From contig JACROE010000002.1 in the NCBI GenBank assembly GCA_016214565.1, forward strand, positions 728,007-792,006: a stretch of DNA of 64,000 nt, written 5' to 3'. The notes below the pieces were generated by a model. That model ran no database searches, was not told the origin of the DNA, and saw only the letters and a program-made list of their open reading frames with translations. Within the stretch, counting starts at the first letter, position 1. Each line of letters begins with the position of its first letter. This document shows positions 1 through 35,850 of this stretch, in pieces. The translations under genes and the position numbers were made by a program. Source of the DNA: Candidatus Kerfeldbacteria bacterium (GTDB taxonomy: Bacteria > Patescibacteriota > Patescibacteriia > UBA10025 > JAHIVO01).

Positions 1-1
1 G

Positions 2-1708
2 CAGAGCACTCTTTCGACGCCACTTTTCACCGACCACAACGAGCTGAAAACCTTTGACTGGGTTGTCGCCAATCCGCCCTTTTCATACAAAGCATGGCGC
101 AACGGATTCAATCCGGAGGCCGACGACTTTGGCCGTTTCGACGGATTTGGCGTTCCGCCAAAGAAGAATGGTGATTTTGCGTTCTTGCTTCATATACTCA
201 AGAGCCTCAAGAGCACGGGCACCGGTGCGGTGATTCTGCCGCATGGCGTACTCTTCCGAGGTAACACCGAAGCCGACATCCGAACCAACATCGTGAAGCG
301 GGGATACATCAAAGGCATAATCGGATTGCCACCTAACCTCTTTTACGGCACCGGTATTCCGGCCTGCATTATCGTCCTCGATAAGAAAGACGCGGCCAAT
401 CGTAAAGGTATTTTCATGATTGACGCGTCGAAAGGGTACGTCAAAGACGGGAACAAGAACCGACTCAGAGAGCAGGATATCAGGAAGATCGTCGACACCT
501 GGGACGGCAAACTGGAAATTCCGAAGTTCTCCCGGTTTGTTCCGAACGAAGAGATTGCCGAGAAGAACCAATACAATCTCAATCTACCGCGCTACATCGA
601 CACCCAGGAGCCGGAAGACATTCAAGATATAGAGGCCCACTTGAAAGGGGGCATTCCGGAAGCCGATATCGAAATGCTGAGCGCCTTTTGGGAAGTGTGC
701 CCTGGGCTTCGTAAGGCGCTGTTCAAATCGTCCGACCGAAAGGGCTATGATCAGTTGGCGATTGAACCGGGTGATGTTCGAAAAACGATTTTGGATAACC
801 AAGAGTATCACGCTTTTCGAGCACAGGTGGATAAGATCTTTGGTAGTTGGCGCGAACAGATTGTCCCCGGTCTCAAGGGCATTTCCACTAAGGATCACCC
901 CAAGGCGATAATCCAATCTGTCTCTGACAAGCTGCTCGCGCACTGCACGAAACTGCATTTGATAGACAAGTACGACATTTACCAGCATCTTATGAACTAT
1001 TGGGATGAAGTGATGCAAGACGACGCCTACATTCTCACGACCGAGGGCTGGAAAGCTGGCAACGTCGTCACTCGATTGCAGCGAGAAGGCAAGGGAAAGA
1101 AGAAGGACATAGAAGGTCTGCCCGGACTTGAGGGCCGTCTCATTCCCGTTTCGCTTATGATAGGGACCTATTTCAGCAATGAGCAGGCTGAGCTTGACGA
1201 GCTATCTGTACGATTGGAGCAGATAGCTGCGGAAATGGACGAACTCAAGGATGAGCATGGCGGCGAAGAGGGCTTACTTACTGAGGTCATTGACAACGAT
1301 AAGATATCCAAAGGGGCAGTTCAGAAAAGGATCAAGGAAATCAAAGACGACAGCGACTTCGCTGATGAACTGAAGGTTCTGGAAGCGTACTTCGCGAACT
1401 TCGAGAGTGAGGCGGAAACCAAGAAACTCATTAAGGATCGTGAAAAGGCACTTGAGGCCAAGATTCTGGCGAAGTACCCAAAGCTGACACTTGATGAAGT
1501 GAAGACGCTTGTCGTCGACCGCAAGTGGATGGATTCGTTGCAAGGCATGATTCTAGGGCAGGTAGAGCGCTTGGCGCAATCACTTGCGAGTCGAGTTCAG
1601 CAGTTGGCTGAGCGATATGCCGAGCCTCTGCCGGCATTAACGAAGTCAGTTGAAGCACTCACTTTGACGGTGAATGGTCATCTGACAAGAATGGGTTTCA
1701 ATAAATAA
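2..1708 (+). CDS. hsdM: Type I restriction-modification DNA methyltransferase subunit HsdM, 5'-truncated by window edge
   Basis: Frame 2 is open from nt 2. It encodes ...FDWVVANPPFSYKAWRNGFNPEADDFGRFDGF..., with the N6-adenine MTase motif IV NPPF at nt 74-85. The C-terminal coiled-coil region is typical of HsdM. The ORF-track ATG at 185 is internal. Confidence 0.85.
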   Translation, partial: QSTLSTPLFTDHNELKTFDWVVANPPFSYKAWRNGFNPEADDFGRFDGFGVPPKKNGDFAFLLHILKSLKSTGTGAVILPHGVLFRGNTEADIRTNIVKRGYIKGIIGLPPNLFYGTGIPACIIVLDKKDAANRKGIFMIDASKGYVKDGNKNRLREQDIRKIVDTWDGKLEIPKFSRFVPNEEIAEKNQYNLNLPRYIDTQEPEDIQDIEAHLKGGIPEADIEMLSAFWEVCPGLRKALFKSSDRKGYDQLAIEPGDVRKTILDNQEYHAFRAQVDKIFGSWREQIVPGLKGISTKDHPKAIIQSVSDKLLAHCTKLHLIDKYDIYQHLMNYWDEVMQDDAYILTTEGWKAGNVVTRLQREGKGKKKDIEGLPGLEGRLIPVSLMIGTYFSNEQAELDELSVRLEQIAAEMDELKDEHGGEEGLLTEVIDNDKISKGAVQKRIKEIKDDSDFADELKVLEAYFANFESEAETKKLIKDREKALEAKILAKYPKLTLDEVKTLVVDRKWMDSLQGMILGQVERLAQSLASRVQQLAERYAEPLPALTKSVEALTLTVNGHLTRMGFNK

Positions 1709-1709
1709 C

Positions 1710-3002
1710 GTGGACGTCATGTCGACAAGGGTAACCGTAGAGAACGAATCATCACTCAAGACTACTGAGGTAGGTGCCATACCCCGGGATTGGGATCTAG
1801 TCTCATTCGATGACGCCTTCGAGTTTCTTCGCACAGCCTCATACTCGCGAGAGCAGCTGGGCGCAAATGGTGATTACCAATACATTCACTACGGGGACAT
1901 CCATACGAAGTGGTCATTTTTTGTTGATATGTCAAAGGCTCGCACTCCAACTGTCGATCGCGGGCAAGCGGGGAATTATAGTCAGATAAAGGAAGGCGAT
2001 CTTATCCTTGCCGATGCCTCTGAAGATTATGCGGGTGTTGCTAAGAGCGTGGAAGTTATTAATCTCGGTGAAAAGAAGGCCATTGCGGGCCTCCACACCT
2101 TCCTCCTGCGAGACAAGGGCAACAACTTCGTTGACGGTTTCAAAGGATATATTACTTCGAGTCCGCTTGTCAAACCTAGCTTGGACCGCTACGCCACAGG
2201 CTTAAAAGTCTTTGGCATATCTAAGAACAACTTGAAACTGGTACCGATTCCAAAGCCACCATCGGAACAGCAGAAAGCCATTGTTAAGGCGCTCAGAGAT
2301 ACAGACGCCTTGATAGAAAGCCTCGAGAAGCTCATCGCCAAGAAGCGAGCAATCAAGCAGGGCGTGATGCAGGAGCTACTGACCGGCAAGCGGCGGCTGC
2401 CGGGGTTTACTAAGGCGTGGACCAGAGAAAGAATAGGAGATTGTACTCAAATCGTCAGCGGTGGCACCCCGCGCACAGATAGAAACCAGTATTGGAACGG
2501 TGGCATTAAGTGGTGTACACCTACCGACATTACTGGCACTTTTGGGAAATACCTTCATGATACTCAGCGATCAATTTCACAGGCGGGTCTCAAAAGCTGT
2601 GCCGCTCGCCTTTTACCTGCTGGCACTCTGCTGTTATGCAGTCGTGCGACCATAGGTGAAGTCAGGATAGCTACGGATCAAATCTGTACCAATCAGGGAT
2701 TCAAATCACTTGTCTGTAGCGATCGAATTGACAACGAGTTTCTTTATTACCTCCTATTGACGCTCAAGCAGAAGATGATTGAGAAGGCGATTGGTTCAAC
2801 ATTTCTTGAAATTGGGAAACGGGAACTGGCTGCGCTTGAAATACCTTATCCGCCCATAGAGGAGCAGAGAGCGATTGCAATGGTCCTTTGCGAATTAGAT
2901 ACCGAATTGGAGTTACAGCAGAGCAGACTGCAAAAGTTGACCCAGGTTAAGCAAGGCATGATGCAATCTCTCCTAACTGGTAAGATAAGACTAACAGTGT
3001 GA
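1710..3002 (+). CDS. hsdS: Type I restriction-modification specificity subunit HsdS
   Basis: 430 aa with two target-recognition halves. Each is followed by the conserved HsdS repeat: PPSEQQKAIVKAL...KRAIKQGVMQELLTGKRRL and PPIEEQRAIAMVL...QVKQGMMQSLLTGKIRL. GTG start 1 nt after the hsdM stop. Confidence 0.9.
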   Translation: MDVMSTRVTVENESSLKTTEVGAIPRDWDLVSFDDAFEFLRTASYSREQLGANGDYQYIHYGDIHTKWSFFVDMSKARTPTVDRGQAGNYSQIKEGDLILADASEDYAGVAKSVEVINLGEKKAIAGLHTFLLRDKGNNFVDGFKGYITSSPLVKPSLDRYATGLKVFGISKNNLKLVPIPKPPSEQQKAIVKALRDTDALIESLEKLIAKKRAIKQGVMQELLTGKRRLPGFTKAWTRERIGDCTQIVSGGTPRTDRNQYWNGGIKWCTPTDITGTFGKYLHDTQRSISQAGLKSCAARLLPAGTLLLCSRATIGEVRIATDQICTNQGFKSLVCSDRIDNEFLYYLLLTLKQKMIEKAIGSTFLEIGKRELAALEIPYPPIEEQRAIAMVLCELDTELELQQSRLQKLTQVKQGMMQSLLTGKIRLTV

Positions 3003-6000
3003 CTACTATGACAAAAGAAGCGACCCCCAAAGTTGGCCAAATCGAACGCAAGACCCAAGACCGTCTTGTGGCGTTGATTCGTGACCGTCTGAATTACGAC
3101 TACCTTGGCAACTGGGAAGACCGTGAAGATAATAGCAATGTCGAGGAGCTACTTCTTCACTCGTACCTGATTCGGTCCGGATATAGTGACACACTCGTAT
3201 TCAAAGCCGTTGAGGAGCTGAAGAAATGTACAGGTCGATCGAACATCAGCCTATACGACCTTAACCGTGAGACGTACGGTCTGTTGAGGTACGGGGTGAA
3301 AGTCAAGGAAGGTCACGGCGAACACTATAAGACTATTTGGCTCATCGACTGGGAACACCCCGAGAAAAATGACTTCGCTTTCGCAGAAGAGGTTACGGTC
3401 AAAGGGAATCGGACCAAACGCCCGGATATCGTGCTTTATGTAAACGGAATTGCCTTAGGCGTGATCGAGTTGAAACGGAGTATCGTATCGGTTGCCGAGG
3501 GAATCCGCCAGAACATCGGTAATCAAAAGGACGCTTTCATCAAGCCTTTCTTCGCAACCGTTCAACTGCTCATGGCCGGAAACGATACCGAAGGACTTCG
3601 ATTCGGCACTACCGAGACGAAAGAGGACTGCTACCTCACTTGGAGTACAAAGGAGCCGGGATATGAGAAAGACAATCGGCTTGATCGCCATGTTTTGCAA
3701 ATGTGCGAAAAGAAGAGGTTCCTCGAGATCGTTCACGACTTCATTGCCTTCGACAGCGGCATTAAGAAGACCTGTCGGCACAACCAGTACTTTGGAGTCA
3801 AAGTAGCGCAGGAATTCGTGCAACAGCACAAGGGCGGAATAATCTGGCATACCCAGGGCTCAGGTAAGAGCCTGACCATGATCTGGCTCGCTAAGTGGAT
3901 TAAAGAACACATGCACGATCCACGCGTACTTGTTCTGACCGACCGAAAAGAGCTTGACGAGCAGATCGAGCGGTTTTTCATGGGCGTAGATGAGAAGATC
4001 TATCGCGCGAAGAGCGCAAGGGATTTGATAGGGCAACTCAATATCAAGAATGAGTGGCTGCTCTGTTCGCTAGTGCACAAATTCGGCCGTACCGGAGCCA
4101 CCGGTGAGACCGACGTGGATGGATACATCGCCGACCTCAAGAAGAATCTGCCAAAAGACTTTTCGGCCAAAGGCGATCTTTTCGTGTTCGTCGATGAGTG
4201 TCACCGTACGCATACCGGCAAGCTTCACGAAGCGATGAGAGAGCTCCTCCCCAACGCTACATTCATCGGTTTCACTGGCACGCCGCTTCTCAAAATTGAC
4301 AAGTCGAACAGCATTGGCGTTTGGGGCCCATACATCCACACCTACAAATACGACGAGGCAGTGGCCGACAAGGTTGTGCTCGACTTACGATACGAAGCTC
4401 GACGCGTAGACCAAGACATCACGTCACAGGAGAAAATCGACCAGTGGTTCGAGGAACGAACCAAGGGGCTCACCGACGTAGCCAAGGCGGAACTGAAGAA
4501 GCGGTGGGGGACGATGCAATCCCTGTTGTCTTCCAAGTCACGCTTGGAAAAAGTAGTCTTCGATATTCTCGATGACTTCTACAAAAAAGAACGTCTCGCC
4601 AGCGGCCGCGGCAACGCCATGCTGGTAGCGAGCAGCATTTATGAAGCCTGCCAGTACTACGAGATATTCCAGGCTCAGGGATTTACCAAGTGCGCCATCG
4701 TCACGTCATACGAGCCTGGCGCGATTCAGTCCGAAGACCGCGAGTACGCCATCTACCAGAAGATGCTGGGTGGCAAGGCCACCGAAGAGTTCGAGAAGGA
4801 AGCCAAGAAGAAGTTCATCGAAACACCAGGACAGATGCAACTTCTCATTGTCGTGGACAAACTCCTGACTGGTTTTGACGCACCGCCTGCGTCCTATCTG
4901 TATGTCGATAAGAACATGCAGGATCACGGCCTATTCCAGGCGATTTGCCGAGTCAATCGGCTCGACGGTGAGGACAAAGAGTACGGCTACATCGTCGACT
5001 ACAGGGATCTTTTCAAAAAGCTTGAACAAGCGGTCACCGACTATACTGCCGGAGCATTCGAAGGCTTTGATCAAGAGGATGTTCTTGGGCTACTCAAGGA
5101 CAGGTTAGAAGAAGGTCGCAAAGATCTCGAGGAAGCTCTAGAGGTCGTAAGAGCTCTTTGTGAACCAGTTGCGCCGCCCAAAGATTCTGGAGCCTACATT
5201 CGCTACTTCTGTGGAGACGTTGAAAATCCATACGCCCTGAAGGAAAACGAAATCAAGCGGGTCAAGCTCTACCGTTCCGTCAGCCATCTACTTCGAATGT
5301 ATGCCGATCTCGCCAACGATATGGAGAAGGTCGGATTCTCCAGAGCGCAAGCCGAAGCGATCGGCAATGAGGTAAAGCACTACGAACAGGTCCGGATGGA
5401 AGTCAAGCTTGCAAGCGGAGACTACATCGACCTGAAGAAGTACGAGCCGGCCATGCGGACTCTTATCGACAGGTACATTTCGGCAAAAGAAAGCGAAAGG
5501 CTATCCGCGTTTGATGACATGACCCTCGTGGATTTGATCGTCAAAAAGGGCAAAGATGCCATCGACGACCTACCGGAGTCGGTGAAAAAGAACCAAGAAG
5601 CTACCGCTGAGACAATCGAAAACAACGTCCGCAAGCTGATCATCGACGAAACGCCTACGAATCCGAAGTACTTTCTCCGCATGTCGGAGCTCCTCGATAC
5701 CTTAGTGAAGCAGCGGAAACGGGCTGATATCGAGTACAAGGAGTACCTGGCCAAGATTGTCGAGCTTACTAAGCAGGTCAAGCACCCGGAACAGTCGCGT
5801 CATTATCCTTCGCGGGTTGATACACGAGCCAGACAGGCACTCTATGATAATCTCGGACAGGACGAGGGTAAAGCTGTTGCCCTGGACGAGGCAATTGTAG
5901 GCGCACTGGAAGACAACTGGCGTGGTCACATGCAGAAGGAACGTCGGGTGAGGAACGCAATTAAGGGCGCGATGCCGGGGATATCGGAGGACGAGCTCAA

Positions 6001-6040
6001 GTCCTTATTTGAGCTCGTAAAGAATCAACATGAGTACTAA
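2999..6040 (+). CDS. hsdR: Type I restriction enzyme R subunit HsdR (SF2 helicase/translocase + nuclease)
   Basis: 1013 aa. Walker A-like QGSGKSLTM, DEAH-box FVFVDECHRT and helicase motifs are present. The start overlaps the hsdS stop (GTGA), giving translational coupling. Confidence 0.9.
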   Translation: MTTMTKEATPKVGQIERKTQDRLVALIRDRLNYDYLGNWEDREDNSNVEELLLHSYLIRSGYSDTLVFKAVEELKKCTGRSNISLYDLNRETYGLLRYGVKVKEGHGEHYKTIWLIDWEHPEKNDFAFAEEVTVKGNRTKRPDIVLYVNGIALGVIELKRSIVSVAEGIRQNIGNQKDAFIKPFFATVQLLMAGNDTEGLRFGTTETKEDCYLTWSTKEPGYEKDNRLDRHVLQMCEKKRFLEIVHDFIAFDSGIKKTCRHNQYFGVKVAQEFVQQHKGGIIWHTQGSGKSLTMIWLAKWIKEHMHDPRVLVLTDRKELDEQIERFFMGVDEKIYRAKSARDLIGQLNIKNEWLLCSLVHKFGRTGATGETDVDGYIADLKKNLPKDFSAKGDLFVFVDECHRTHTGKLHEAMRELLPNATFIGFTGTPLLKIDKSNSIGVWGPYIHTYKYDEAVADKVVLDLRYEARRVDQDITSQEKIDQWFEERTKGLTDVAKAELKKRWGTMQSLLSSKSRLEKVVFDILDDFYKKERLASGRGNAMLVASSIYEACQYYEIFQAQGFTKCAIVTSYEPGAIQSEDREYAIYQKMLGGKATEEFEKEAKKKFIETPGQMQLLIVVDKLLTGFDAPPASYLYVDKNMQDHGLFQAICRVNRLDGEDKEYGYIVDYRDLFKKLEQAVTDYTAGAFEGFDQEDVLGLLKDRLEEGRKDLEEALEVVRALCEPVAPPKDSGAYIRYFCGDVENPYALKENEIKRVKLYRSVSHLLRMYADLANDMEKVGFSRAQAEAIGNEVKHYEQVRMEVKLASGDYIDLKKYEPAMRTLIDRYISAKESERLSAFDDMTLVDLIVKKGKDAIDDLPESVKKNQEATAETIENNVRKLIIDETPTNPKYFLRMSELLDTLVKQRKRADIEYKEYLAKIVELTKQVKHPEQSRHYPSRVDTRARQALYDNLGQDEGKAVALDEAIVGALEDNWRGHMQKERRVRNAIKGAMPGISEDELKSLFELVKNQHEY

Positions 6041-6758
6041 TTCTTACATGCTCAAGGTCGGATTGGTGGAGGCGCTGATTGTCAGGAAGGCGATCAAGAA
6101 CGTCCACCTGTCTGTTTTGCCGCCAGAGGGTAAGGTTCGAGTCACCGCACCAGTTGCGATGAACGATGACGCTATCCGCATATTGCTGGCTACCAGGCTG
6201 GGCTGGATAAATCGTCAACAAACGAAATTCCGCAATCAGCAACGACAGACTCCGCGAGAATACGTATCCGGTGAAAGTCACTACCTATTCGGCAGGCGGT
6301 ACCGCTTAGAAGTCCGATACGAGGAAGCTCCACCCCGCGTTGAAGCGAAGGCCAACGGAAAACTGTTCCTATATGTCAGACCGAACGCTTCTCAGGGGAA
6401 GCGCCACGAGGTGATAACCGAATGGTACCGTACCGAGCTTCACCAGCTACTTGAAGACTTGATACCGAGATGGCAAGACAAAATCGGTGTTCGACCATCT
6501 GTATGGGCTATCAAGCGCATGAGGACCCGGTGGGGCACCTGCAATAAGGACAAAAAGCGGATTCTTCTAAACCTTGAGCTAGTCAAGAAGCCGGTCTCCT
6601 GCATTGAGTATGTTGTGGTTCATGAACTGATCCACTTGATTGAGAAGAAGCACAATAATCGATTCGTCCAGTTGCTGACGAGGCATCTGCCGAAATGGAA
6701 GAGCCAAAAGCAGGAACTGAATCGCTTCATATTGTCGCATGAGGAGTGGAGATATTAG
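6030..6758 (+). CDS. YgjP/DUF45-family zinc metallohydrolase (M48/WLM-like), common accessory gene of Type I R-M loci
   Basis: 242 aa. HExxH motif VVHELIHLIEKKH plus WGTCN... are typical of the YgjP family. The ATG overlaps the hsdR 3' end by 11 nt. Confidence 0.7.
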   Translation: MSTNSYMLKVGLVEALIVRKAIKNVHLSVLPPEGKVRVTAPVAMNDDAIRILLATRLGWINRQQTKFRNQQRQTPREYVSGESHYLFGRRYRLEVRYEEAPPRVEAKANGKLFLYVRPNASQGKRHEVITEWYRTELHQLLEDLIPRWQDKIGVRPSVWAIKRMRTRWGTCNKDKKRILLNLELVKKPVSCIEYVVVHELIHLIEKKHNNRFVQLLTRHLPKWKSQKQELNRFILSHEEWRY

Positions 6759-6779
6759 CAAATAGGGAATATCATACTC

Positions 6780-9700
6780 ATGAAGTGGATAACTGCATCA
6801 GACATCACCAACTGGGCAAACACACAACAGCGGCAGTGTTCTCAGACCTTGCCGGAGTTAGTACGTCGCCTGATTTTTGCTATCACTTCCGATATTCGAA
6901 CGATTGAATTCCCGAGTGGAGACAGTGTATCCACCAGAGGTTGGGATGGCCGACTCGATGCACCCGTAGCTGTCCCGTTTTTTCCGCAAGGCGTGTCGGG
7001 GTGGGAAATTGGCTCTGATAAATCGGCCAAGAAAAAGGCCGATGGAGACTTTGCCAAACGGATTGCTGAGCCTGACGGGCTTATTCCCGCTGATACCACT
7101 TTTGTCTTCGTTACTCCGAGGTCGTTTCCGAGCCGCGCGAAATGGCAATCTGATAATCAAGCAAAGGGACACTGGAAGGCGGTGCGAGTTGTTGCGGCAG
7201 ACGGGATTGAACAGTGGTTGGATTCTGCGCCGGCGGTAGCGCTATGGTTGGCGAGAACAATTGGCAAAGCAACCGGAGATAGACTCCGAGACATCGAAGA
7301 GTGTTGGGATGAATGGTCCTATTCGACTTCACCTCCCATGAGTATCCCGTTGGTAATTGCAGGACGCACAAATGAACAGGATAGAATTCACAAGTGGCTA
7401 TCGGAAACACCCGATAGGCTTGAAGTTCAAGGTGATTCTCCAGCTGAAGCGCGTGCCTTTCTGTATGCTGCAATCTGCGGCTTGCCGGAGAGCGAACGTT
7501 CGCGAGTGCTCTCAAGATGCATAGTGATTGATAATTTAACGGATCTCCGTAATTGTATAAGAACGTTTCTCAATCCGTTGGTTATTGTCACTACTTCTGA
7601 TTGCAGTGAGGCGGTTGGCCTCGCTATCAACAAGGGACACCATGTCTTTGTCTGTGTGGATGCAAGTGTGATAGATATCGCTCGAATTTTACGTCTTTCC
7701 CGTCCGAAAAGGTCAGCAGTAGCTGCCACCCTGCAAGAATTGGGCTTGTCGCCAGCTAACGCCCAACAACTCGCGCGGGATTTCGGGCGAAGCATCCCGG
7801 TACTCCGCCGCCACTTAGCCGTATCGGGTGCTGCCCGGCGGCCACCGTGGTCAGAAGCCGACCAGGCACGGTCTCTCATGCCATTGATGCTACTTGGTTC
7901 AATTTCTGAAAGTACAGACGGGGACAAACAAATTGCTGAGATAGTCTCCGGGTTCTCATTCACTGTTTATGCCGAACGGCTTAATGAGCTTAGAGTATTC
8001 GAGGATAGCCCTGTAGTAAAAATTGGAGAAGTATGGACACTCAAATCGCCGCTCGACTCTTGGTTTTTGATCGCGGGACAATTGACCGCAGATATTCTCA
8101 CCGCATTTTCGAGTGCGAGCACGCAAGCGTTAGAAGAACTGCATCCGAAGTATGAGCTATCACCCGACGAACGGTGGATGGCAGCTTTTCATTCCAAGAT
8201 TAGGCAATATTCCCCGCATTTGCGAATGGGTCTTGCCGAAACTCTGGTCCGTATGTCGGTCTTCGGTGATAAAGCACCGATCGCGCTATCCGCTCCTCAA
8301 GTCGCACAGCAGGCGGTGCGAAATATCTTGTCAGCAACAACCAGTTGGCAGGGGTGGGCTTCAATACAGGACATTACTCCGCTGCTAGCCGAGGCCGCAC
8401 CCGTAACATTTCTCGAAGCTGTGGAACAAGTTATTGCCACCCATCCTGAAATCGTTACAGAATTGTTCAAAGATGAGGGTCAATCGCTCTTTGGGGAGTG
8501 TAAGCATGCTGGCCTGCTGTGGGCACTTGAGTCTATCGCCTGGGACCCACAGTACTTTGAGCGCGTCGTTGCTTTATTAGTCGACTTGGCGAAGTTAGAC
8601 CCAGGTGGACAGTGGGTAAATAGGCCCCTGAACAGCCTCAAGGATTTGTTCTTACCCCAATACCCACAGACTCACGCGGGCCCGACGGCGCGGTTATCGG
8701 CGTTCGAAACCCTCATACAAAGAGACGCTCAGCTAGCCTGGCAGATCGCATACAGTTACTTCGATCGCGGAATCATTAGTGCCTCGCATCAATATCAATG
8801 GCGTGATGCCGGAGGCGAGCGCCGAGGGTTGGAACCGGAGTCCAATGAGAACTATGCTGCCTACCTGACGGGATTATGGCCTAAAGCGAAGGCACTGGCG
8901 GCGATGCCAATAAATGTAATACAGGCACTAGACGACTTTACAAGACTTCCACCGGACTTTCGTGAACAGGTTGCGTCCGTTCTGTTGTCAATGAATGCCG
9001 AAGAACTGTCTTTGGATGATCGACTTCGGTTATTAGAAAAGGTGCGAGAAGCTTTGAACTGGATTAACAGCTATGGTAAGGAGGAGTATCAAGAGTCAAT
9101 ACCGAAACTAAAGGAGATACTACAGCGCTTTGAGCCAGATGACGTTATTGAACGTGTCGGCTGGCTATTGAAGTCGCCTTGGCCACGTCTTCCCGAAGGA
9201 ACAACTAAAGATTACGACGCTGACGAAGAGCACGTTGCAGCGTTGCAACAGCAGGCCGCGCGTGAGTTACTCGACAGTATTGATATTGAAGCTATTCTCA
9301 GCTTTGCCAAGACGACAGAATACACTGGCGTTGTGGGTACTGCTATAGGGAGAGCGATAAAAGATGACGAAGAAGACCAGCGAGTGCTAAGCCAGCTTAT
9401 CAAGGGAGCTTTGCCAACCCAGGCTCGCGAAGTAACAGGATATGCCGCGCAACGAATACGCATCGCCGGAATACATTGGATCGACCGGCAAATAGCGTAC
9501 CTGAAAACTGTTGGCGTAGCAACACCGGAGGTCATTGCATTAATGCTCTTGGGACTACCCGAGCAAGCTTCGACGTGGGAAAAGGTCGCAGCGTTTGGGA
9601 TTGAGGTAGAGAAAGCTTACTGGGGACTAGCGACAGGGCGTTCGCGTTCAGATCGACTCTCAGATGCTGCTTTGGCAGTAACGAAGCTGTTGAATGCTCA

Positions 9701-10568
9701 TCGACCGGATGCTGCGCTTGAGATTGCTGGGGATCCCAAGTTATCTTTGCCCAGTGCATTACTGAAGCGCCTATTGCTCGAGCTGTTGGAGCACAGCAAG
9801 TCTGCAACACAACCTCGTCACGATGCGATGCTGCCTTTTCACTTGGGATATGTATTCAGGCAGATTCACGAGCGCGATGAGTTGCCGCTGGGAGAGATTG
9901 TAGCCCTGGAATGGCCCTATGCCTCATTGTTCGATGATTTCAAACAGTATTTGTCTAAGCCCTTGGCCATCCACCGACTATTACAGCGCGACCCTGGTCA
10001 GTTTGCCGATTTCGTCGCGCTCATGTACAAACGCGATGACAGAATCCGAACAGATGAAGAGCCGCTTGACCAAAAAGCCATGCAAATCGCCAGAAACGCG
10101 CGTGAGGTCGTATCATCCTGGCGGCTTATGCCGGGTCTGAGTTCTGACGGCGGTATTGATGAAGGCGAGCTTCGTGCTTGGGTTCTCGCCGTGCGCGACA
10201 AGTGCAGATCTCTGAAGACAGTAACTGGCTGCGATATTGAACTAGGCACCATGTTAGCGCACGCCCCTCGCGATAGCGATGGAAATTGGCCTCATACGGC
10301 TGTCAGAAACATCATCGAACTACTGGCAAATCAGACTATTGATCGGCATATCGAAACAGAGCTGTTCAATAGTCGCGGCACAACGGTGCGTAGCCCAGGA
10401 GAAGGTGGCAGGCTGGAGAGAGAGCTCGCGCTAACCTATCGCCGGATGAGCGACGCGCTGAAAGAGAAGTGGCCAAGAACCGCTCAAATCTTGCGCTCCA
10501 TGGCTAGCACCTACGAGCATCAGGCGGGTCGGGAAGATATTGATGCGCAACTGAACGACTTCAGTTGA
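6780..10568 (+). CDS. Large uncharacterised protein (1262 aa), alpha-helical-repeat rich with a distinct ~180-aa N-terminal domain; function unknown
   Basis: Long uninterrupted ORF, co-directional and 21 nt downstream of the YgjP-like gene. No Walker A, no HEPN Rx4-6H motif and no obvious PD-(D/E)xK motif were recognised by eye. The N-terminus is ...SGDSVSTRGWDGRLDAPVAVPFFPQGVSGWEIGSDKS... Confidence 0.6.
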   Translation: MKWITASDITNWANTQQRQCSQTLPELVRRLIFAITSDIRTIEFPSGDSVSTRGWDGRLDAPVAVPFFPQGVSGWEIGSDKSAKKKADGDFAKRIAEPDGLIPADTTFVFVTPRSFPSRAKWQSDNQAKGHWKAVRVVAADGIEQWLDSAPAVALWLARTIGKATGDRLRDIEECWDEWSYSTSPPMSIPLVIAGRTNEQDRIHKWLSETPDRLEVQGDSPAEARAFLYAAICGLPESERSRVLSRCIVIDNLTDLRNCIRTFLNPLVIVTTSDCSEAVGLAINKGHHVFVCVDASVIDIARILRLSRPKRSAVAATLQELGLSPANAQQLARDFGRSIPVLRRHLAVSGAARRPPWSEADQARSLMPLMLLGSISESTDGDKQIAEIVSGFSFTVYAERLNELRVFEDSPVVKIGEVWTLKSPLDSWFLIAGQLTADILTAFSSASTQALEELHPKYELSPDERWMAAFHSKIRQYSPHLRMGLAETLVRMSVFGDKAPIALSAPQVAQQAVRNILSATTSWQGWASIQDITPLLAEAAPVTFLEAVEQVIATHPEIVTELFKDEGQSLFGECKHAGLLWALESIAWDPQYFERVVALLVDLAKLDPGGQWVNRPLNSLKDLFLPQYPQTHAGPTARLSAFETLIQRDAQLAWQIAYSYFDRGIISASHQYQWRDAGGERRGLEPESNENYAAYLTGLWPKAKALAAMPINVIQALDDFTRLPPDFREQVASVLLSMNAEELSLDDRLRLLEKVREALNWINSYGKEEYQESIPKLKEILQRFEPDDVIERVGWLLKSPWPRLPEGTTKDYDADEEHVAALQQQAARELLDSIDIEAILSFAKTTEYTGVVGTAIGRAIKDDEEDQRVLSQLIKGALPTQAREVTGYAAQRIRIAGIHWIDRQIAYLKTVGVATPEVIALMLLGLPEQASTWEKVAAFGIEVEKAYWGLATGRSRSDRLSDAALAVTKLLNAHRPDAALEIAGDPKLSLPSALLKRLLLELLEHSKSATQPRHDAMLPFHLGYVFRQIHERDELPLGEIVALEWPYASLFDDFKQYLSKPLAIHRLLQRDPGQFADFVALMYKRDDRIRTDEEPLDQKAMQIARNAREVVSSWRLMPGLSSDGGIDEGELRAWVLAVRDKCRSLKTVTGCDIELGTMLAHAPRDSDGNWPHTAVRNIIELLANQTIDRHIETELFNSRGTTVRSPGEGGRLERELALTYRRMSDALKEKWPRTAQILRSMASTYEHQAGREDIDAQLNDFS

Positions 10569-10617
10569 CAATTTGTACAGGATGACATTCGTCTTTTGCT
10601 TGTGCCGGTGCTATAAT
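10565..10617 (+). promoter_or_regulatory. Sigma70-like promoter with extended -10 (TGcTATAAT) only 8 nt upstream of the ATG, so the mRNA is probably leaderless
   Basis: TTGACA at 10565-10570 and TGnTATAAT at 10609-10617. The CDS ATG is at 10626 and no SD is present. Confidence 0.45.
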
Positions 10618-10625
10618 CAACGCGT

Positions 10626-11417
10626 ATGCCCAACGGCGGCGGACAAATCGACCTGAAACACTGGCTCCAAGAACATCGGGAAATCTCCGATGAGGATTTT
10701 CGGTTCCTGATTGGGCATTCTCTCAGCCATCTTCGCATTCCTTTGACCGGAGTCCTGGGCTATCTGACGATGCTCGTCGAAGGGGACTTCAAGGCGCGAG
10801 AATTCTCCACAATTCACAAGTCGCTCAAAGAAACAGTACAGGAAGCCCTCGATACGCTAAGTGATGTTATGAAATTGAGGATTGCCTACGCGCGACAATT
10901 TGCACCGAAGACCAAGCAAAACAGCGCAAAGAAAGGACTAAAAAGAGTACTGCATTTCGAAGACGATAAGATGCTCACAAAGATATACCGAGTACGATTC
11001 GAACTGGATGGACTGCAGTACGAACCGCGAGAAACTCCCGCGCCCGATCCAGTAGCTTTAGTGAAAAGCGTTAAACCCGACCTCATCCTCATGAGTGTCA
11101 TTATGCCAGAAATGGATGGGTTTAGCGCGACCAGATTACTGAAGGGCGATCCGGAGACGCGAAACATTCCTTTATTATTCCTGACAAATCTCGGACAAAA
11201 GGAAGATATCATTAAGGGAATGAGCCTTGACGCGGTCGATTACTTGGTCTCTGCGCATTACACTCCCTGGCAGGTCGTCGACCGAGTGCGAGAGGTGTTG
11301 AAACTACCCAGACTCAAAAGAGATGAAAAGCTCTATCCGCCATTACCGACTCAGGGTAGTCGGGTGCCAAGGTACCAGGACATTCCGAAGGATGAAACGA
11401 TTAACCGTGCGGCATAG
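10626..11417 (+). CDS. HisKA-like (DHp H-box) domain fused to a degenerate receiver (REC) domain; no HATPase domain
   Basis: The H-box is HSLSHLRIPLTGVLGYL. The REC-like C-terminus is DLILMSVIMPEMDGFSATRLLK...LLFLTNLG...DAVDYLV, where the phospho-acceptor Asp position reads Ser and the conserved Lys before Pro is missing. Confidence 0.55.
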   Translation: MPNGGGQIDLKHWLQEHREISDEDFRFLIGHSLSHLRIPLTGVLGYLTMLVEGDFKAREFSTIHKSLKETVQEALDTLSDVMKLRIAYARQFAPKTKQNSAKKGLKRVLHFEDDKMLTKIYRVRFELDGLQYEPRETPAPDPVALVKSVKPDLILMSVIMPEMDGFSATRLLKGDPETRNIPLLFLTNLGQKEDIIKGMSLDAVDYLVSAHYTPWQVVDRVREVLKLPRLKRDEKLYPPLPTQGSRVPRYQDIPKDETINRAA

Positions 11418-11606
11418 TGGCTCATTGTCGGAAGTTAACCACAGAGTCTGACCACTCTGATTCAATGCGAGTGTTTTGGTCAACATGCTAGAATATTCTC
11501 ATCGACGTTGAGACTTTGCAATTACTTGGGTTTTTCTGGATAAGCGGGTTATCGGAGGCCATTCGACTCAGAGTACAATTTCATTGACTATTATCACTTT
11601 CAGACT

Positions 11607-11900
11607 ATGGCACTCATTAAGTGCAGTGAATGCGGAAAAGATATTTCGGACCAGGCAGAGGCTTGTCCGCACTGTGGCAATCCTCTACGGCCCATTGTCG
11701 TACAGGCTACCAGCAAGCGTTGGAAACTTGCAAAACTAATTGCATGGATCAGCATATTGGTGGGGATATATCTCTTCTTGCGAGGCTATGGCCTCGACGA
11801 GTGGAGTAGTCCAATGACCGGCTTTGGTTTCACGTTAGCATTTGTTGGTTTTGTAGCGCTCATGGTGGCCAAATTTGGAAGCTGGTGGAACCACAAATAG
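11607..11900 (+). CDS. Small zinc-ribbon (CxxC...CxxC) membrane protein
   Basis: MALIKCSECGKDISDQAEACPHCGNPL is followed by two predicted TM helices. Confidence 0.45.
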   Translation: MALIKCSECGKDISDQAEACPHCGNPLRPIVVQATSKRWKLAKLIAWISILVGIYLFLRGYGLDEWSSPMTGFGFTLAFVGFVALMVAKFGSWWNHK

Positions 11901-12125
11901 CGGTATCATTTCGACAGGTGATCACGCTAGAACGGGATTGTCTTCTATTGCAGTTCTAACATCATTCACCAGACGGACGGGGACAGGAAACGTGCACATC
12001 GGGAACTGCCTTTACAGAGACCCTGATTTGTGGTATTCTGTTGACTAATTGCCCTCATTTTAGCCAAAAACTGTCAGGGTGTTCGATGAAAAAGGTGCGA
12101 ACGTCTGACACCAGGCCCCACCATT

Positions 12126-12355
12126 GGGTGCGTAGCTCAGTCCCGACGCGAAGCGGTCGGGATTCCGACTGAAACGTCGGAACTGGTTAGCCTTCAAAAT
12201 CCCATAGGATATGTGAGAATAGAAGCCCATTTATTTGTAGGGGTGCGTAGCTCAGTCCCGACGCGAAGCGGTCGGGATTCCGACTGAAACGTCGGAACTG
12301 GTTAGCCTTCAAAATCCCATAGGATATGTGAGAATAGAAGCCCATTTATTTGTAG
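12126..12355 (+). repeat. Two identical 115-bp tandem direct repeats; each begins with GGGTGCGTAGCTCAG (the 5' end of the downstream tRNA-like element) and contains two perfect 7-bp hairpins
   Basis: Copy 1 (12126-12240) and copy 2 (12241-12355) are identical by eye. The hairpins are TCCCGAC-gcgaagcg-GTCGGGA and TTCCGAC-tgaaac-GTCGGAA. Confidence 0.85.
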
Positions 12356-12409
12356 GGGTGCGTAGCTCAGCTCGTGAGGTCAGAGGTTCGATCCCTCTCG
12401 CGCCCACCA
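12356..12409 (+). other. 54-nt tRNA-like element (7-bp acceptor stem with one G-U, short D-like hairpin, T-arm AGAGG-TTCGATC-CCTCT, encoded CCA) lacking an anticodon arm; tRNA remnant/pseudogene or minihelix-like RNA
   Basis: GGGTGCGTAGCTCAGCTCGTGAGGTCAGAGGTTCGATCCCTCTCGCGCCCACCA. The acceptor strands GGGTGCG and CGCGCCC pair, the T-loop is canonical, and the length is too short for a functional tRNA. Confidence 0.4.
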
Positions 12410-12552
12410 CGCGTTCACAATTGCTTCGTCCTTCGTGTGACGAATCAAGTTCGTCCCACTCCGCACGTCAGCAATGTGCCCGCTTTTCCCCATCAAGCAG
12501 AGCTTGATGGGGGATCCCGAAGAAAGATTACTAAAAAATCCGTTACGGTATT

Positions 12553-13185
12553 ATGAAAATTACCCCAGACAAAGAGACAATTGCCCGCGAACCGAAAGCA
12601 GAACAGGGCGTGCCAGACTACGCGAAATCACCGCGCGGTTTTTTGGTTGAGCTGATAAAAATCGTTTTGATCGCCGTGGTGATTATTATTCCGATCCGGT
12701 ATTTTTTGTTTCAGCCGTTTTACGTCCGTGGCGCCTCCATGGAGCCGAATTTCCACGACAATGAATATCTCATCATTGATGAAATTACCTATCGTTTTAC
12801 TGAGCCGCAGCGTGGAGAGATTGTGGTAGTTCGGGATCCAAAGAATCATGCTGAATTTTTGATTAAACGTATTATCGGTTTGCCGGGTGAGACCATTCAG
12901 GTGATCGAGGGCAATGTATACATTTACAATCAGGAAAATCCGGAGGGAAAAATATTATCTGAGCCATACTTATTTAGTCACATAGTTACGACGCATGATC
13001 AGCGGGTGGAGGTAGGCTCGGATGAATATTTCGTGATGGGGGACAACCGACCGGTTAGCCTGGATTCGCGGAGCTTTGGCCCTATTTTGAAAAAAAATAT
13101 TGTGGGACGTGCCTGGCTTCGGGTGTGGCCGTTTGAAACTTTTACTCACTTTTCTGTGCCAAGTTATAGTACGCAATCACAATAA
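12553..13185 (+). CDS. lepB: Signal peptidase I
   Basis: N-terminal TM helix. Catalytic Ser box GASMEPNF, Lys box KRIIGLPGE and GDNRPVSLDSR are present. Confidence 0.9.
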   Translation: MKITPDKETIAREPKAEQGVPDYAKSPRGFLVELIKIVLIAVVIIIPIRYFLFQPFYVRGASMEPNFHDNEYLIIDEITYRFTEPQRGEIVVVRDPKNHAEFLIKRIIGLPGETIQVIEGNVYIYNQENPEGKILSEPYLFSHIVTTHDQRVEVGSDEYFVMGDNRPVSLDSRSFGPILKKNIVGRAWLRVWPFETFTHFSVPSYSTQSQ

Positions 13186-13192
13186 TAAATTT

Positions 13193-35831: not shown

Positions 35832-35850
35832 TCATTCAGTGAATTATCGT

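What the first reader, a model, noticed from the sequence alone, without database searches (positions are those of the whole stretch)
1..11417. Compact, translationally coupled Type I R-M island with accessory genes, bounded by an anomalous tRNA-like repeat locus
hsdM/hsdS are separated by 1 nt. The hsdS/hsdR junction overlaps as GTGA. hsdR and the YgjP-like gene overlap by 11 nt. The orphan giant gene and the HisKA/pseudo-receiver gene follow. The block ends about 700 bp before the tandem tRNA-like repeats (12126-12409). This arrangement is what an integrated or horizontally acquired island next to a tRNA-type att site would look like, although no integrase is visible within the window because the left edge is cut.
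Basis: inference. Interest (0 to 1): 0.55.

Follow-up and report, generated by a model that had tools for sequence, protein, structure and literature searches.

The report
Imported restriction cassette beside decayed tRNA element
The left end of this window, from a Kerfeldbacteria (candidate phyla radiation) genome, holds an ordinary imported four-gene Type I restriction-modification cassette next to a probable antiviral sensor gene, and the odd tRNA-like repeats nearby are not its insertion site but the decayed remains of a small, apparently undescribed element that sits at the front end of tRNA genes.

Summary
The sequence features are mostly real. hsdM (cut by the window edge), hsdS, hsdR and a YgjP/SprT-like metallopeptidase gene are tightly packed. 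The 11-nt hsdR/ygjP overlap recurs in an unrelated metagenomic contig and on a Pseudomonas plasmid.

This four-gene cassette (1-6758) looks horizontally acquired. Its codon usage is deviant (hsdR z=16). HsdR homologs are 75-91% identical across phyla, whereas HisS reaches only 39%. DNA homology to the other host stops at the ygjP stop codon.

The "orphan" 1262-aa gene is not an orphan. It has more than 350 same-length homologs and an Avs4/Apaf-1-like STAND fold with a degenerate Walker A motif, so it is a probable antiviral sensor.

The tRNA att-site reading is not supported. The window has no integrase and no flanking core copy, and the cassette edge lies 5.4 kb from the repeats.

The repeats (12126-12409) are two perfect 115-bp units plus a tRNA pseudogene without an anticodon arm. 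Each unit is a tRNA 5' fragment followed by twin CCGAC/GTCGG hairpins. The same module occurs in other uncultivated bacteria with a GIY-YIG nuclease gene whose stop codon is U8-A9-G10 of an intact tRNA. I found no description of this element.

Main finding: ordinary. By-product: moderately interesting.

The parts
2..1708 (+). hsdM, Type I methyltransferase subunit. The 5' part is cut off by the window edge.
   Evidence: PF02384 E=6e-44, profile positions 166-309. PADLOC MTase_I E=1e-191, matching profile positions 301-809. Codon-usage z=8.2, GC3 0.61. 78% DNA identity to L148 over 1-1632.
1710..3002 (+). hsdS, specificity subunit with two target-recognition domains. The start is GTG 1710 or ATG 1719.
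   Evidence: PF01420, two stretches, E=7e-38. PADLOC Specificity_I E=5e-84. Only the central (2269-2424) and terminal conserved regions match L148 at DNA level, i.e. the TRDs differ.
2999..6040 (+). hsdR, restriction/translocase subunit. The likely true start is ATG 3008 (1010 aa).
   Evidence: HSDR_N, SWI2_SNF2, T1R_D3-like, ResIII. TIGR00348 E=5e-162. Homologs 75-91% identical across phyla. Start inferred from homolog N-termini. Codon-usage z=16.
6030..6758 (+). YgjP-like/SprT-like zinc metallopeptidase, fourth gene of the cassette. It overlaps hsdR by 11 nt.
   Evidence: PF01863 E=3e-61. The same gene with the same 11-nt overlap follows hsdR in L148/L149 and in Pseudomonas plasmid NZ_CP146692. 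Homologs on 554 plasmids. DNA homology to L148 ends at 6751.
6780..10568 (+). 1262-aa STAND/Avs-like protein. It has an N-terminal alpha/beta domain with invariant D56/E76/K86, an AAA+/NB-ARC-like core with a degenerate Walker A, and a C-terminal alpha-solenoid. Probable antiviral sensor.
   Evidence: No Pfam or NCBIfam hit. More than 350 homologs of 1255-1279 aa at 43-55% identity in several phyla. AF2 pLDDT 85.8 and 85.5. Foldseek: Avs4 8dgf E=1e-6, Apaf-1, Dark, NRC. C-terminal half matches importin/CRM1-type solenoids. PADLOC PD-Lambda-4_A E=2e-5. Walker A position reads LEVQGDSPAEARAF.
10626..11417 (+). 263-aa protein with a HisKA-like H-box and a pseudo-receiver domain (phospho-acceptor Asp replaced by Ser).
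   Evidence: Response_reg E=1e-11, residues 108-208. HisKA E=0.003, below threshold. Sequence read directly.
11607..11900 (+). 97-aa zinc-ribbon protein with a hydrophobic C-terminal half.
   Evidence: Zn_ribbon_3 E=3e-8. Translation.
12011..12039 (+). Sigma-70-like promoter match (TTTACA-17-TATTCT with TG), 87 nt upstream of the repeats.
   Evidence: One site was found and 1.2 are expected by chance, so this is weak.
12126..12240 (+). Repeat unit 1. It comprises tRNA 5' 15-mer (12126-12140), twin hairpins TCCCGAC-8-GTCGGGA and TTCCGAC-6-GTCGGAA (12141-12182), a D-arm-like remainder CTGGTTAGCC, and a 48-nt tail.
   Evidence: The twin-hairpin pattern is shared with L020/L021. Aligned with L142 and L144.
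12241..12355 (+). Repeat unit 2, 100% identical to unit 1.
   Evidence: Two independent Logan assemblies end exactly 30 nt into the repeat, at 12155.
12356..12409 (+). tRNA pseudogene ('mini-tRNA'). It has a 7-bp acceptor stem, a 4-bp stub hairpin, a T-arm and encoded ACCA. It has no D-loop and no anticodon arm.
   Evidence: ARAGORN finds nothing. Rfam tRNA 29.9 bits, seen only in a small-region search, with the D-loop and anticodon arm deleted in the alignment. Fold.
12553..14674 (+). lepB (12553-13185) and hisS (13193-14674). These are the first housekeeping genes to the right of the locus.
   Evidence: Pfam. Gene calls in L001. Native codon usage, z about 1.

Best explanation
The region is a composite, not one integrated island.

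(a) Positions 1-6758 are a horizontally acquired Type I R-M cassette, hsdM-hsdS-hsdR-ygjP. It travels as a four-gene unit with its tight gene junctions built in. It presumably works as a standard Type I system: the M2S1 methylase protects the host, and HsdR translocates and cuts unmodified DNA. The role of the YgjP-like metallopeptidase is unknown.

(b) The adjacent 1262-aa gene encodes a STAND/Avs-like protein. It has an effector-like N-terminus, an AAA+/NB-ARC-like core with a degenerate P-loop, and an alpha-solenoid sensor. It most likely acts as a single-gene antiviral pattern-recognition protein. Cassette and sensor together form a small defence cluster.

(c) The HisKA-like/pseudo-receiver gene and the zinc-ribbon gene are neighbours with no demonstrated link to either system.

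(d) The tRNA-like repeats are not an att site for (a)-(c). They are the decayed, ORF-less, tandemly duplicated remnant of a small element family. In other uncultivated bacteria that family consists of three parts in order:
- a copy of the first 13 nt of the local tRNA;
- CCGAC/GTCGG hairpins;
- an 88-90-aa GIY-YIG nuclease gene that runs into an intact tRNA and stops at its U8-A9-G10.

In this window the nuclease gene is gone. The unit has duplicated, most simply by unequal recombination between the flanking 15-nt copies. The resident tRNA has lost about 27 nt starting in the D-loop, at or within 2 nt of the element's junction, leaving a pseudogene.

Shown: gene identities, cassette conservation and its boundary, codon deviation, fold similarity, and shared element anatomy. 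Inferred: antiviral function, mode of element mobility, and the order of decay events.
For: Cassette:
- Domain hits for all four genes.
- Codon and GC3 deviation.
- HsdR 75-91% identical in other phyla, against HisS at 39% or less.
- The same four genes and the same 11-nt overlap in L148/L149 and on a conjugative plasmid.
- DNA homology stops at 6751.

STAND-like gene:
- More than 350 homologs of equal length, standing alone in three different contexts.
- Confident AF2 models.
- Foldseek top hits are Avs4 (E=1e-6), Apaf-1, Dark and NRC, and the C-terminal half is a solenoid.
- A weak PADLOC hit to PD-Lambda-4_A. That family is Avs8, and some of its members are reported to have degenerate Walker motifs (bioRxiv 10.64898/2026.01.04.697583).

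Repeats:
- A 41-nt twin-hairpin pattern with 27 fixed bases matched only 2 of 241 million metagenome records. Both matches sit directly after a tRNA 5' fragment.
- Homologs of the adjacent GIY-YIG ORF show the same layout at tRNA-Ala and tRNA-Pro. The 5' fragment matches the local tRNA at 11/13 and 13/13 positions.
- The four loci align.
- 20 of 38 family proteins end in Gly-X-stop, as expected if codons 2-4 and 5-7 and the stop at 8-10 come from a tRNA.
- Outer stem positions change in a compensatory way (CT:AG, TC:GA, TT:AA), while the CCGAC core is invariant (read).
Against: - The left edge of the cassette is outside the window, so an integrase or a distant att copy cannot be excluded.
- No close relative of this genome was available, so no empty-site comparison was possible.
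- The STAND-like assignment rests on fold similarity with low global TM-scores (about 0.22) and one weak sequence hit. The Walker A motif is not canonical and no defence phenotype is known.
- The element family is documented at DNA level in only three complete loci plus this remnant. Its mobility is inferred, since no empty and filled allele pair was seen.
- In L021 and in the window, tRNA sequence resumes after the hairpins (AGTGGTAG; CTGGTTAGCC). A simple 13-bp target duplication does not explain this.
- The perfect identity of the two 115-bp units could also reflect selection or gene conversion.
- True copy number is uncertain from short-read assemblies.
Confidence: 0.7

Rival explanations
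1. First reader's model. Positions 1-11417 form one integrase-mediated genomic island, inserted at a tRNA-type att site whose core is the 15-mer. The integrase lies beyond the left edge of the window.
For: The R-M genes are compositionally foreign. A tRNA-derived sequence with a repeated core lies 709 bp from the block. The left edge is unseen.
Against: - The homology and codon boundary is at 6758, not 11417.
- The 1262-aa gene occurs alone elsewhere.
- The parts of the window examined hold no integrase and no further exact 15-mer copy.
- The block lies 5' of the tRNA-like sequence, whereas tRNA-targeting islands usually lie 3' of the tRNA (established knowledge, recalled).
- The 115-bp spacing of the 15-mers and the hairpins that follow them are accounted for by the hairpin/GIY-YIG element family.
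Confidence: 0.07
2. The repeat locus is a functional non-coding RNA gene. It would be a transcript with two structured 115-nt modules, ending in a tRNA-like element that serves as an RNase P/CCA processing handle or 3'-end mimic, comparable in principle to mascRNA-type processing.
For: - The 287-nt region folds better than shuffles (z=-5.1), as does the single unit (z=-3.0).
- A promoter-like site lies 87 nt upstream.
- The acceptor stem, T-arm and encoded ACCA are intact, although the window's tRNA-Asp does not encode CCA.
- The two units are 100% identical.
Against: - No Rfam family matches beyond the marginal tRNA hit.
- The mini-tRNA alone does not fold better than shuffles (z=-1.5).
- The promoter match is at chance level.
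- Homologous hairpin modules elsewhere accompany a nuclease gene and an intact tRNA, so they look like parts of a mobile element, not of an RNA gene.
- No expression data are available.
Confidence: 0.12
3. The tandem repeat is an assembly artefact: a collapsed or mis-resolved loop in a de Bruijn graph.
For: The genome is metagenome-assembled. The repeat is perfect. Short-read contigs break there.
Against: Two independent Logan assemblies (SRR12113395, SRR12113407) end exactly 30 nt into the first unit. That is what a true repeat of at least 31 nt does to a k=31 graph (the k value is my inference). A 15-nt shared core alone could not create a loop. At least two unit starts must exist. Only the copy number is uncertain, and it could be higher.
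Confidence: 0.05
4. The repeats are a degenerate CRISPR-like or other repeat-spacer array.
For: Weak matches of the first hairpin to CRISPR-DR20 and DR56 (16.8 and 15.7 bits).
Against: The scores are far below the gathering thresholds (42 and 35), with E-values of 2.8-9.3. The 'spacers' are identical. Pfam found no cas genes among the 29 proteins scanned, which cover the long ORFs at 1-14.7 kb and 24-48 kb.
Confidence: 0.01

Closest known systems
Type I restriction-modification systems with a linked YgjP/SprT-like (COG1451-type) metallopeptidase
   Same: The subunit set, domain content and gene order hsdM-hsdS-hsdR-ygjP are the same. The conserved 11-nt hsdR/ygjP overlap is also seen in L148/L149 and plasmid NZ_CP146692. 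The TRDs are variable while the hsdS core is conserved.
   Different: Nothing material differs. The host is a CPR bacterium and hsdM is truncated by the window edge. The association of this peptidase with Type I systems in defence-island surveys is recalled from the literature, and I could not retrieve a source.
Avs (antiviral STAND) proteins, e.g. Avs4 (PDB 8dgf) and Avs8/PD-lambda-4
   Same: It has the same tripartite build of N-terminal domain, AAA+/NB-ARC-like core and C-terminal helical repeat sensor. It is a single gene of about 1260 aa with a patchy cross-phylum distribution. Foldseek gives E=1e-6 to Avs4, and there is a weak PADLOC hit to PD-Lambda-4_A.
   Different: No significant Pfam, NCBIfam or PDB sequence match. 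Walker A is non-canonical (GDSPAEA, no GK[ST]) and conserved as such across the family. The effector domain is unidentified. No phenotype is known.
Free-standing GIY-YIG homing endonucleases next to tRNA genes, e.g. phage T4 SegB (PMC2330249)
   Same: It is a small GIY-YIG nuclease gene embedded among or next to tRNA genes. The neighbouring tRNA region is the presumed target and the beneficiary of preferential inheritance.
   Different: In these elements the ORF overlaps the tRNA and uses U8-A9-G10 as its stop codon. A 13-nt copy of the tRNA 5' end and conserved CCGAC/GTCGG hairpins lie upstream. The elements are chromosomal, in uncultivated bacteria, and were not found in phage collections. 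The window copy has no ORF at all.
tRNA-gene-targeting integrative islands (tyrosine-integrase att sites)
   Same: Foreign DNA lies near a tRNA-derived sequence with short direct repeats of a tRNA segment.
   Different: No integrase was found. The repeats are 115 bp apart and do not flank the island. They copy the tRNA 5' end and not the 3' end. The tRNA is not functional.

Membership tests
Type I restriction-modification system | HsdM: N6-adenine methyltransferase subunit | tested here: met
   PF02384 E=6e-44. PADLOC MTase_I E=1e-191. The N-terminus is outside the window.
Type I restriction-modification system | HsdS with two target-recognition domains | tested here: met
   PF01420, two stretches. 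PADLOC Specificity_I E=5e-84.
Type I restriction-modification system | HsdR with an N-terminal nuclease domain and an SF2 translocase | tested here: met
   HSDR_N, SWI2_SNF2, T1R_D3-like. TIGR00348 at 540 bits, above the 284 cut-off.
Type I restriction-modification system | Restriction and methylation activity; recognition sequence | not testable with these tools
   Needs methylome data or biochemistry.
Integrase-mediated genomic island at a tRNA att site | Integrase or recombinase gene at one end | tested here: inconclusive
   None among the 29 proteins scanned with Pfam, which cover the long ORFs at 1-14.7 kb and 24-48 kb. The left end of the block lies outside the window and could not be fetched.
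Integrase-mediated genomic island at a tRNA att site | Direct repeats of the att core flanking the island | tested here: not met
   The 15-mer occurs only at 12126, 12241 and 12356. A 2-mismatch match at 10384 lies inside a gene. No other flanking repeat was found in 1-14 kb.
Integrase-mediated genomic island at a tRNA att site | A functional tRNA gene at the junction | tested here: not met
   ARAGORN finds none. The Rfam hit is marginal (29.9 bits) and lacks the anticodon arm. The locus is 5.4 kb from the cassette edge.
Integrase-mediated genomic island at a tRNA att site | Compositional deviation of the whole block | tested here: not met
   Deviation is strong only for 1-6758. The 1262-aa gene and the 263-aa gene fall within the range of housekeeping genes. 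Window-scale GC is flat.
Integrase-mediated genomic island at a tRNA att site | Empty-site allele in related genomes | not testable with these tools
   No close relative exists among 185,579 species genomes. The Logan contigs come from the same strain.
STAND NTPase / Avs antiviral sensors | AAA+/NB-ARC-type nucleotide-binding fold followed by helical and winged-helix modules | tested here: met
   Foldseek: Avs4 E=1e-6, Apaf-1 E=6e-4, Dark, NRC1/NRC2 and clamp loaders, on a model with pLDDT 85.8.
STAND NTPase / Avs antiviral sensors | Canonical Walker A (GxxxxGK[ST]) motif | tested here: not met
   The position reads LEVQGDSPAEARAF. G218, D219, E223 and A226 are conserved and no Lys is present. 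Degenerate motifs are reported for some Avs8 members.
STAND NTPase / Avs antiviral sensors | C-terminal repeat or solenoid sensor domain | tested here: met
   All-helical C-terminal half, pLDDT 85.5. It matches importin, CRM1 and HEAT solenoids at E of about 2e-3 to 4e-2.
STAND NTPase / Avs antiviral sensors | Phage protection triggered by a phage protein | not testable with these tools
   Needs an experiment.
tRNA gene | Complete cloverleaf with an anticodon arm | tested here: not met
   The acceptor stem and T-arm are present. The D-loop and anticodon arm are absent.
tRNA-5'-end hairpin/GIY-YIG element (family defined here) | A copy of the tRNA 5' end followed directly by CCGAC/GTCGG hairpins | tested here: met
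   Window 12126-12182 and 12241-12297. The same arrangement occurs in L021, L142 and L144.
tRNA-5'-end hairpin/GIY-YIG element (family defined here) | GIY-YIG ORF ending at U8-A9-G10 of the downstream tRNA | tested here: not met
   There is no ORF of this kind in 11900-12560. The window copy is an ORF-less derivative.
tRNA-5'-end hairpin/GIY-YIG element (family defined here) | An intact tRNA immediately downstream | tested here: not met
   The downstream tRNA is a pseudogene.
Two-component signalling protein (263-aa gene) | Phospho-acceptor Asp in the receiver domain; HisKA plus HATPase in a kinase | tested here: not met
   The receiver fold is present (E=1e-11) but Asp is replaced by Ser. HisKA is below threshold and there is no HATPase domain.

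The most novel reading that the evidence does not exclude
The hairpin module in the window is a relic of a previously undescribed class of bacterial mobile element that colonises the 5' end and D-loop of tRNA genes.

The element would consist of conserved CCGAC/GTCGG hairpins plus a roughly 89-aa GIY-YIG nuclease gene that has no stop codon of its own and borrows the tRNA's U8-A9-G10. It leaves a 13-15-nt copy of the tRNA 5' end upstream and keeps the tRNA intact downstream.

Because RNase P cleavage at tRNA position +1 would cut the nuclease mRNA away from its stop codon, expression could be coupled to tRNA processing. This coupling is speculation.

Separately, the 1262-aa protein could represent a large, unannotated, P-loop-degenerate Avs-type family that is common in CPR bacteria.
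Probability: 0.4. Interest if true: 0.65.

Novelty: new member of a known kind. Interest (0 to 1): 0.38.

Why it matters
The R-M cassette itself adds little. It is another copy of a widely travelling hsdMSR-ygjP unit, notable only for sitting in a 1.1-Mb CPR genome beside a probable Avs-type sensor. That shows even very small episymbiont genomes keep clustered defence genes.

Two by-products matter more.
- A family of more than 350 conserved proteins of about 1260 aa, with no Pfam model, has a STAND/Avs-like fold and a degenerate P-loop. It is a concrete candidate for defence screening.
- A small nuclease-plus-hairpin element appears to live at the 5' end of tRNA genes and to borrow the tRNA's conserved U8-A9-G10 as its stop codon. 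If it is mobile, it would be a new way for a selfish element to use a tRNA gene as a safe harbour. It would also explain some anomalous 'partial tRNA' repeats and contig breaks in metagenome assemblies.

Tried and rejected
- Extending the contig leftwards failed. Exact-protein look-ups for HsdR, HsdS and the NCBI versions of the genes are not on record. Logan contigs cover only 5058-12155 and 12465 onwards.
- Empty-site comparison failed. The single genome-contig scan with HisS found nothing closer than 39% identity.
- ARAGORN and Rfam at gathering thresholds find no RNA gene at 12126-12409.
- The CRISPR-repeat hits are at noise level.
- A suspected tRNA 3' remnant upstream of the array ('...CCCCACCA') is not significant: alignment score 18 against a shuffle mean of 15 and a maximum of 31.
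- CCGAC/GTCGG hairpins are not a dispersed REP-like repeat. In this window they occur only in the array, apart from one chance match at 11346 inside a gene.
- The 14-mer GTCGGGATTCCGAC is too unspecific: 120+ chance hits in viral contigs and none with the twin-hairpin structure.
- The hairpin pattern and the GIY-YIG family are absent from viral contigs and the phage collection. Plasmids hold only distant (about 35%) relatives.
- PDB sequence searches with the 1262-aa protein and with its profile found nothing.
- Literature searches for the tRNA/GIY-YIG/hairpin element and for the YgjP-Type I link returned nothing specific.
- No conserved partner of the 1262-aa gene was seen. The 263-aa and 97-aa genes are not its neighbours in L012, L014 or L016.

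Full report
**Origin and gene map**

The window comes from a Candidatus Kerfeldbacteria (candidate phyla radiation) genome. The 1262-aa and HsdR proteins are 100% identical to NCBI MAG proteins on a 1,116,013-bp contig.

All genes in 1-14.7 kb are on the + strand:

| Coordinates | Gene |
|---|---|
| ..1708 | hsdM, cut by the left window edge |
| 1710-3002 | hsdS |
| 2999 or 3008-6040 | hsdR |
| 6030-6758 | YgjP/SprT-like metallopeptidase |
| 6780-10568 | 1262-aa gene without Pfam hits |
| 10626-11417 | 263-aa receiver-domain gene |
| 11607-11900 | 97-aa zinc-ribbon gene |
| 12126-12409 | repeat locus |
| 12553-13185, 13193-14674 | lepB, hisS |

HIT, S21 and YqeY genes and a 2713-aa surface protein follow. 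The long ORFs at 24-48 kb encode housekeeping or surface-type proteins (FtsA, FtsZ, NrdR, HtrA, a release factor, GlmS, ComEC and others). None is an integrase, transposase or cas gene.

**Check of the observation**

The junctions are as described at the level of raw ORFs.
- hsdM/hsdS: a 1-nt gap if hsdS starts at GTG 1710. ATG 1719 is the alternative.
- hsdS/hsdR: GTGA at 2999-3002.
- hsdR/ygjP: an 11-nt overlap.

For hsdR the better-supported start is ATG 3008. The NCBI protein and most close homologs are 1010 aa, and their N-termini align from that Met (MTKEATPKVGQ against MSQSKITKVGQ). In L148 the equivalent ATG overlaps the hsdS stop as ATGA. The genes are tightly packed either way.

The 11-nt hsdR/ygjP overlap is inherited with the cassette. 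It appears in L148/L149 and in Pseudomonas juntendi plasmid NZ_CP146692.

The 15-mer occurs three times exactly, as part of a perfect 115-bp tandem repeat of 2.1 copies.

The 263-aa protein has an H-box-like motif that is below threshold for HisKA (E=0.003). Its receiver domain has Ser in place of the phospho-acceptor Asp.

Two points need correction. The giant gene is not an orphan. The '700-bp gap' contains a 97-aa gene.

**Is it an island?**

Window-scale GC is flat, 0.49-0.52 over 1-12 kb. Synonymous codon usage is not flat. Against a null built from 24 other genes of the window:

| Gene | z |
|---|---|
| hsdR | 16 |
| hsdM | 8.2 |
| ygjP | 6.9 |
| hsdS | 5.6 |
| 1262-aa gene | 5.5 |
| 263-aa gene | 5.0 |

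The last two values fall inside the spread of the other window genes, whose maximum is 6.8. GC3 is 0.61-0.63 for hsdM, hsdR and ygjP, and 0.36-0.57 in the 24 reference genes.

HsdR has homologs at 75-91% identity that their sources name as Microgenomates, Margulisbacteria, Bacteroidales and Dysgonamonadaceae. HisS from the same window finds nothing above 39% among 185,579 species genomes.

A contig encoding an 85%-identical HsdR (L148, with L149) carries the same hsdM-hsdS-hsdR-ygjP order with different flanks. At DNA level it matches the window only over 1-1632, 2269-2424 and 2949-6751. That is everything except the hsdS target-recognition domains, and the match stops at the ygjP stop codon. 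YgjP homologs lie on 554 plasmids, mostly conjugative.

The horizontally acquired unit is therefore the four-gene cassette, 1-6758. Its left boundary is outside the window and I could not reach it.

**The 'orphan' 1262-aa gene**

It has more than 350 homologs. The 120 listed include 1255-1279-aa full-length proteins at 43-55% identity, from Moranbacteria, Parcubacteria, Margulisbacteria, Bryobacteraceae and many unnamed sources. A 25-sequence alignment has 67% mean column identity.

In three other genomes the gene stands alone in unrelated contexts:
- next to hslVU/xerC;
- between dus and mnmA;
- in a roughly 6.7-kb insert bounded by a comM gene and an 80-aa comM fragment.

It has no Pfam, NCBIfam or PDB sequence match. 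The only sequence lead is a weak PADLOC hit to PD-Lambda-4_A (E=2e-5, residues 537-651).

AlphaFold2 models of the two halves are confident, with pLDDT 85.8 and 85.5. The N-terminal half matches Avs4 bound to a phage portal (8dgf, E=1e-6), Apaf-1, Dark, plant NRC NB-ARC domains and clamp-loader AAA+ modules. The C-terminal half is an alpha-solenoid resembling importin, CRM1 and HEAT proteins.

PD-lambda-4 is now called Avs8, a capsid-sensing STAND family. Some of its members have degenerate Walker motifs (bioRxiv 10.64898/2026.01.04.697583). Here the Walker A position reads LEVQGDSPAEARAF, without the GK[ST] signature, and this form is conserved across the family.

I therefore call it STAND/Avs-like. 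It is a probable single-gene antiviral sensor, but not a demonstrated family member.

**The tRNA-like repeats**

ARAGORN finds no tRNA there. Rfam gives a marginal tRNA hit (29.9 bits) for 12356-12406 only when a small region is searched, and the D-loop and anticodon arm are missing. The 54-nt sequence folds into an acceptor stem, a 4-bp stub and a T-arm, followed by ACCA.

Each 115-nt unit consists of:
- the tRNA's first 15 nt;
- two adjacent hairpins, TCCCGAC-8-GTCGGGA and TTCCGAC-6-GTCGGAA;
- a D-arm-like remainder, CTGGTTAGCC;
- a 48-nt tail.

A pattern for the twin hairpins (27 fixed bases) matched just two of 241 million metagenome records. In both, the hairpins directly follow a 13-nt copy of the 5' end of a tRNA-Lys. 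They are followed by an 89-aa GIY-YIG ORF and then by the intact tRNA-Lys.

Homologs of that ORF (38 proteins) show the same layout at a tRNA-Ala (L142, 5' copy 11/13 identical) and at a tRNA-Pro (L144-L147, 13/13 identical). The four loci align.

In all three complete elements the ORF ends at the TAG formed by tRNA positions 8-10. Twenty of the 38 proteins end in Gly-X-stop, as expected when codons are built from tRNA positions 2-4 and 5-7. One read-through C-terminus looks like a translated D-arm.

Outer stem positions change in a compensatory way (CT:AG, TC:GA, TT:AA) around an invariant CCGAC/GTCGG core. This is read directly.

The family was not found in viral or phage collections, and I found no description of it in the paper library. 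T4 SegB, a free-standing GIY-YIG homing endonuclease in a tRNA cluster (PMC2330249), is the nearest precedent.

The window copy has no ORF, two tandem units, and a tRNA with a deletion that begins in the D-loop, at or within 2 nt of the element junction. I read it as a decayed remnant. The duplication most simply arose by unequal exchange between the flanking 15-nt repeats. The deletion may reflect faulty repair at the element's target site. Both steps are inference.

Two independent Logan assemblies end 30 nt into the first unit. A repeat of at least 31 nt is therefore real, but its copy number is uncertain.

**Verdict on the interpretation**

'Horizontally acquired' is right for 1-6758. 'One island, 1-11417, next to a tRNA-type att site' is not supported, for five reasons:
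- the cassette boundary is 5.4 kb from the repeats;
- no integrase or flanking core copy is visible;
- the block lies 5' of the tRNA-like sequence;
- the tRNA is a pseudogene;
- the 15-mer repeats have an independent explanation.

The model cannot be fully excluded, because the left edge is unseen and no related genome was available.

**Unresolved**

- The mode of mobility of the hairpin/GIY-YIG element is unknown. A 13-bp target duplication fits three loci. However, in L021 and in the window the tRNA sequence resumes after the hairpins, which suggests the hairpin module interrupts a longer partial tRNA copy.
- It is unknown whether the 115-nt units are transcribed.
- It is unclear why short-read contigs break again at about 12465.
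- The function of the YgjP-like peptidase in Type I systems is unknown.

**Scores**

The given finding is ordinary: a known cassette in a new host, with an incorrect att-site inference. The by-products raise overall interest to about 0.38.

Noticed in passing
L021 523-985 (-); L142 2429-2835 (+); L144 2416-2833 (+); also L020, L143, L145-L147: This is a recurrent element at tRNA 5' ends in uncultivated bacteria. It consists of a 13-nt copy of the local tRNA's 5' end, GCTCCGAC...GTCGGAGC hairpins (2-4, sometimes nested), and an 88-90-aa GIY-YIG ORF whose stop codon is the tRNA's U8-A9-G10. An intact tRNA follows (Lys-UUU, Ala-GGC or Pro-CGG). 20 of 38 family proteins end in Gly-X-stop, consistent with this layout.
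   Followed up: partly
L017 4890-4928 (-), L018 8119-8154 (+), L019 9431-9466 (-): The viral contigs L017 and L018 carry tRNA-like sequences with an acceptor stem, D-arm and T-arm but no anticodon arm, e.g. TGTGCAGTAGCTCAGCGGTAGAGCGGGTCCTAGGTTCGATCCCTAGCTGTACAGCCA in L018. L019 has a similar but less regular sequence. They were found with the pattern GTAGCTCAG-N(8-20)-GGTTCGATCC. L017's lies beside a 14-tRNA cluster.
   Followed up: no
L014 7073-15567: In a 4.28-Mb genome, the homolog of the 1262-aa STAND-like gene lies in a roughly 6.7-kb segment together with two HTH genes. The segment is bounded by an 80-aa Mg_chelatase (comM-like) fragment and a full-length comM-like gene. This looks like an insertion at comM.
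   Followed up: no
window 31000-36000: This is a low-GC stretch (0.39-0.43, against about 0.49 elsewhere). It contains an Hsp70/MreB-like gene (-), an NDK-like gene, a 567-aa double methyltransferase (FkbM + class I; codon-usage z=5.1) and a NUDIX gene. It may be another acquired segment.
   Followed up: no
window 45000-46956 (-): A class I fructose-bisphosphate aldolase and a GlpX FBPase lie on the minus strand. Their codon usage is deviant (z=6.7 and 3.3), GC3 is higher, and the local AT skew is strongly negative (-0.21).
   Followed up: no
window 58844-58919 (-) and 60152-60552 (-): tRNA-Asp(GUC) does not encode the 3' CCA, unlike the mini-tRNA at 12356-12409, which does. A standard one-piece tmRNA (Rfam 61.9 bits) lies 1.2 kb away.
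   Followed up: no
window 12410-12552: Short-read contigs L001 and L002 from two samples both start at window 12465. That is about 95 nt beyond the end of the repeat, so there is a second assembly break that the 115-bp repeat does not explain. A GC-rich hairpin (CCCCATCAAGCAGAGCTTGATGGGG, 12489-12513) without a T-tract lies just downstream.
   Followed up: no
L148 1568-6071: In the other host, genes for an HTH protein, a 367-aa protein and a 1009-aa TrwB/DUF87-type ATPase precede the hsdMSR-ygjP cassette. They may belong to a conjugative element or to another defence system.
   Followed up: no
window 15968-24109: A 2713-aa protein with T4SS_pilin, Big_5 and other Ig-like domains is followed by Big_7- and TSP3-repeat proteins (24134-26328). 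This is a cluster of large surface proteins.
   Followed up: no
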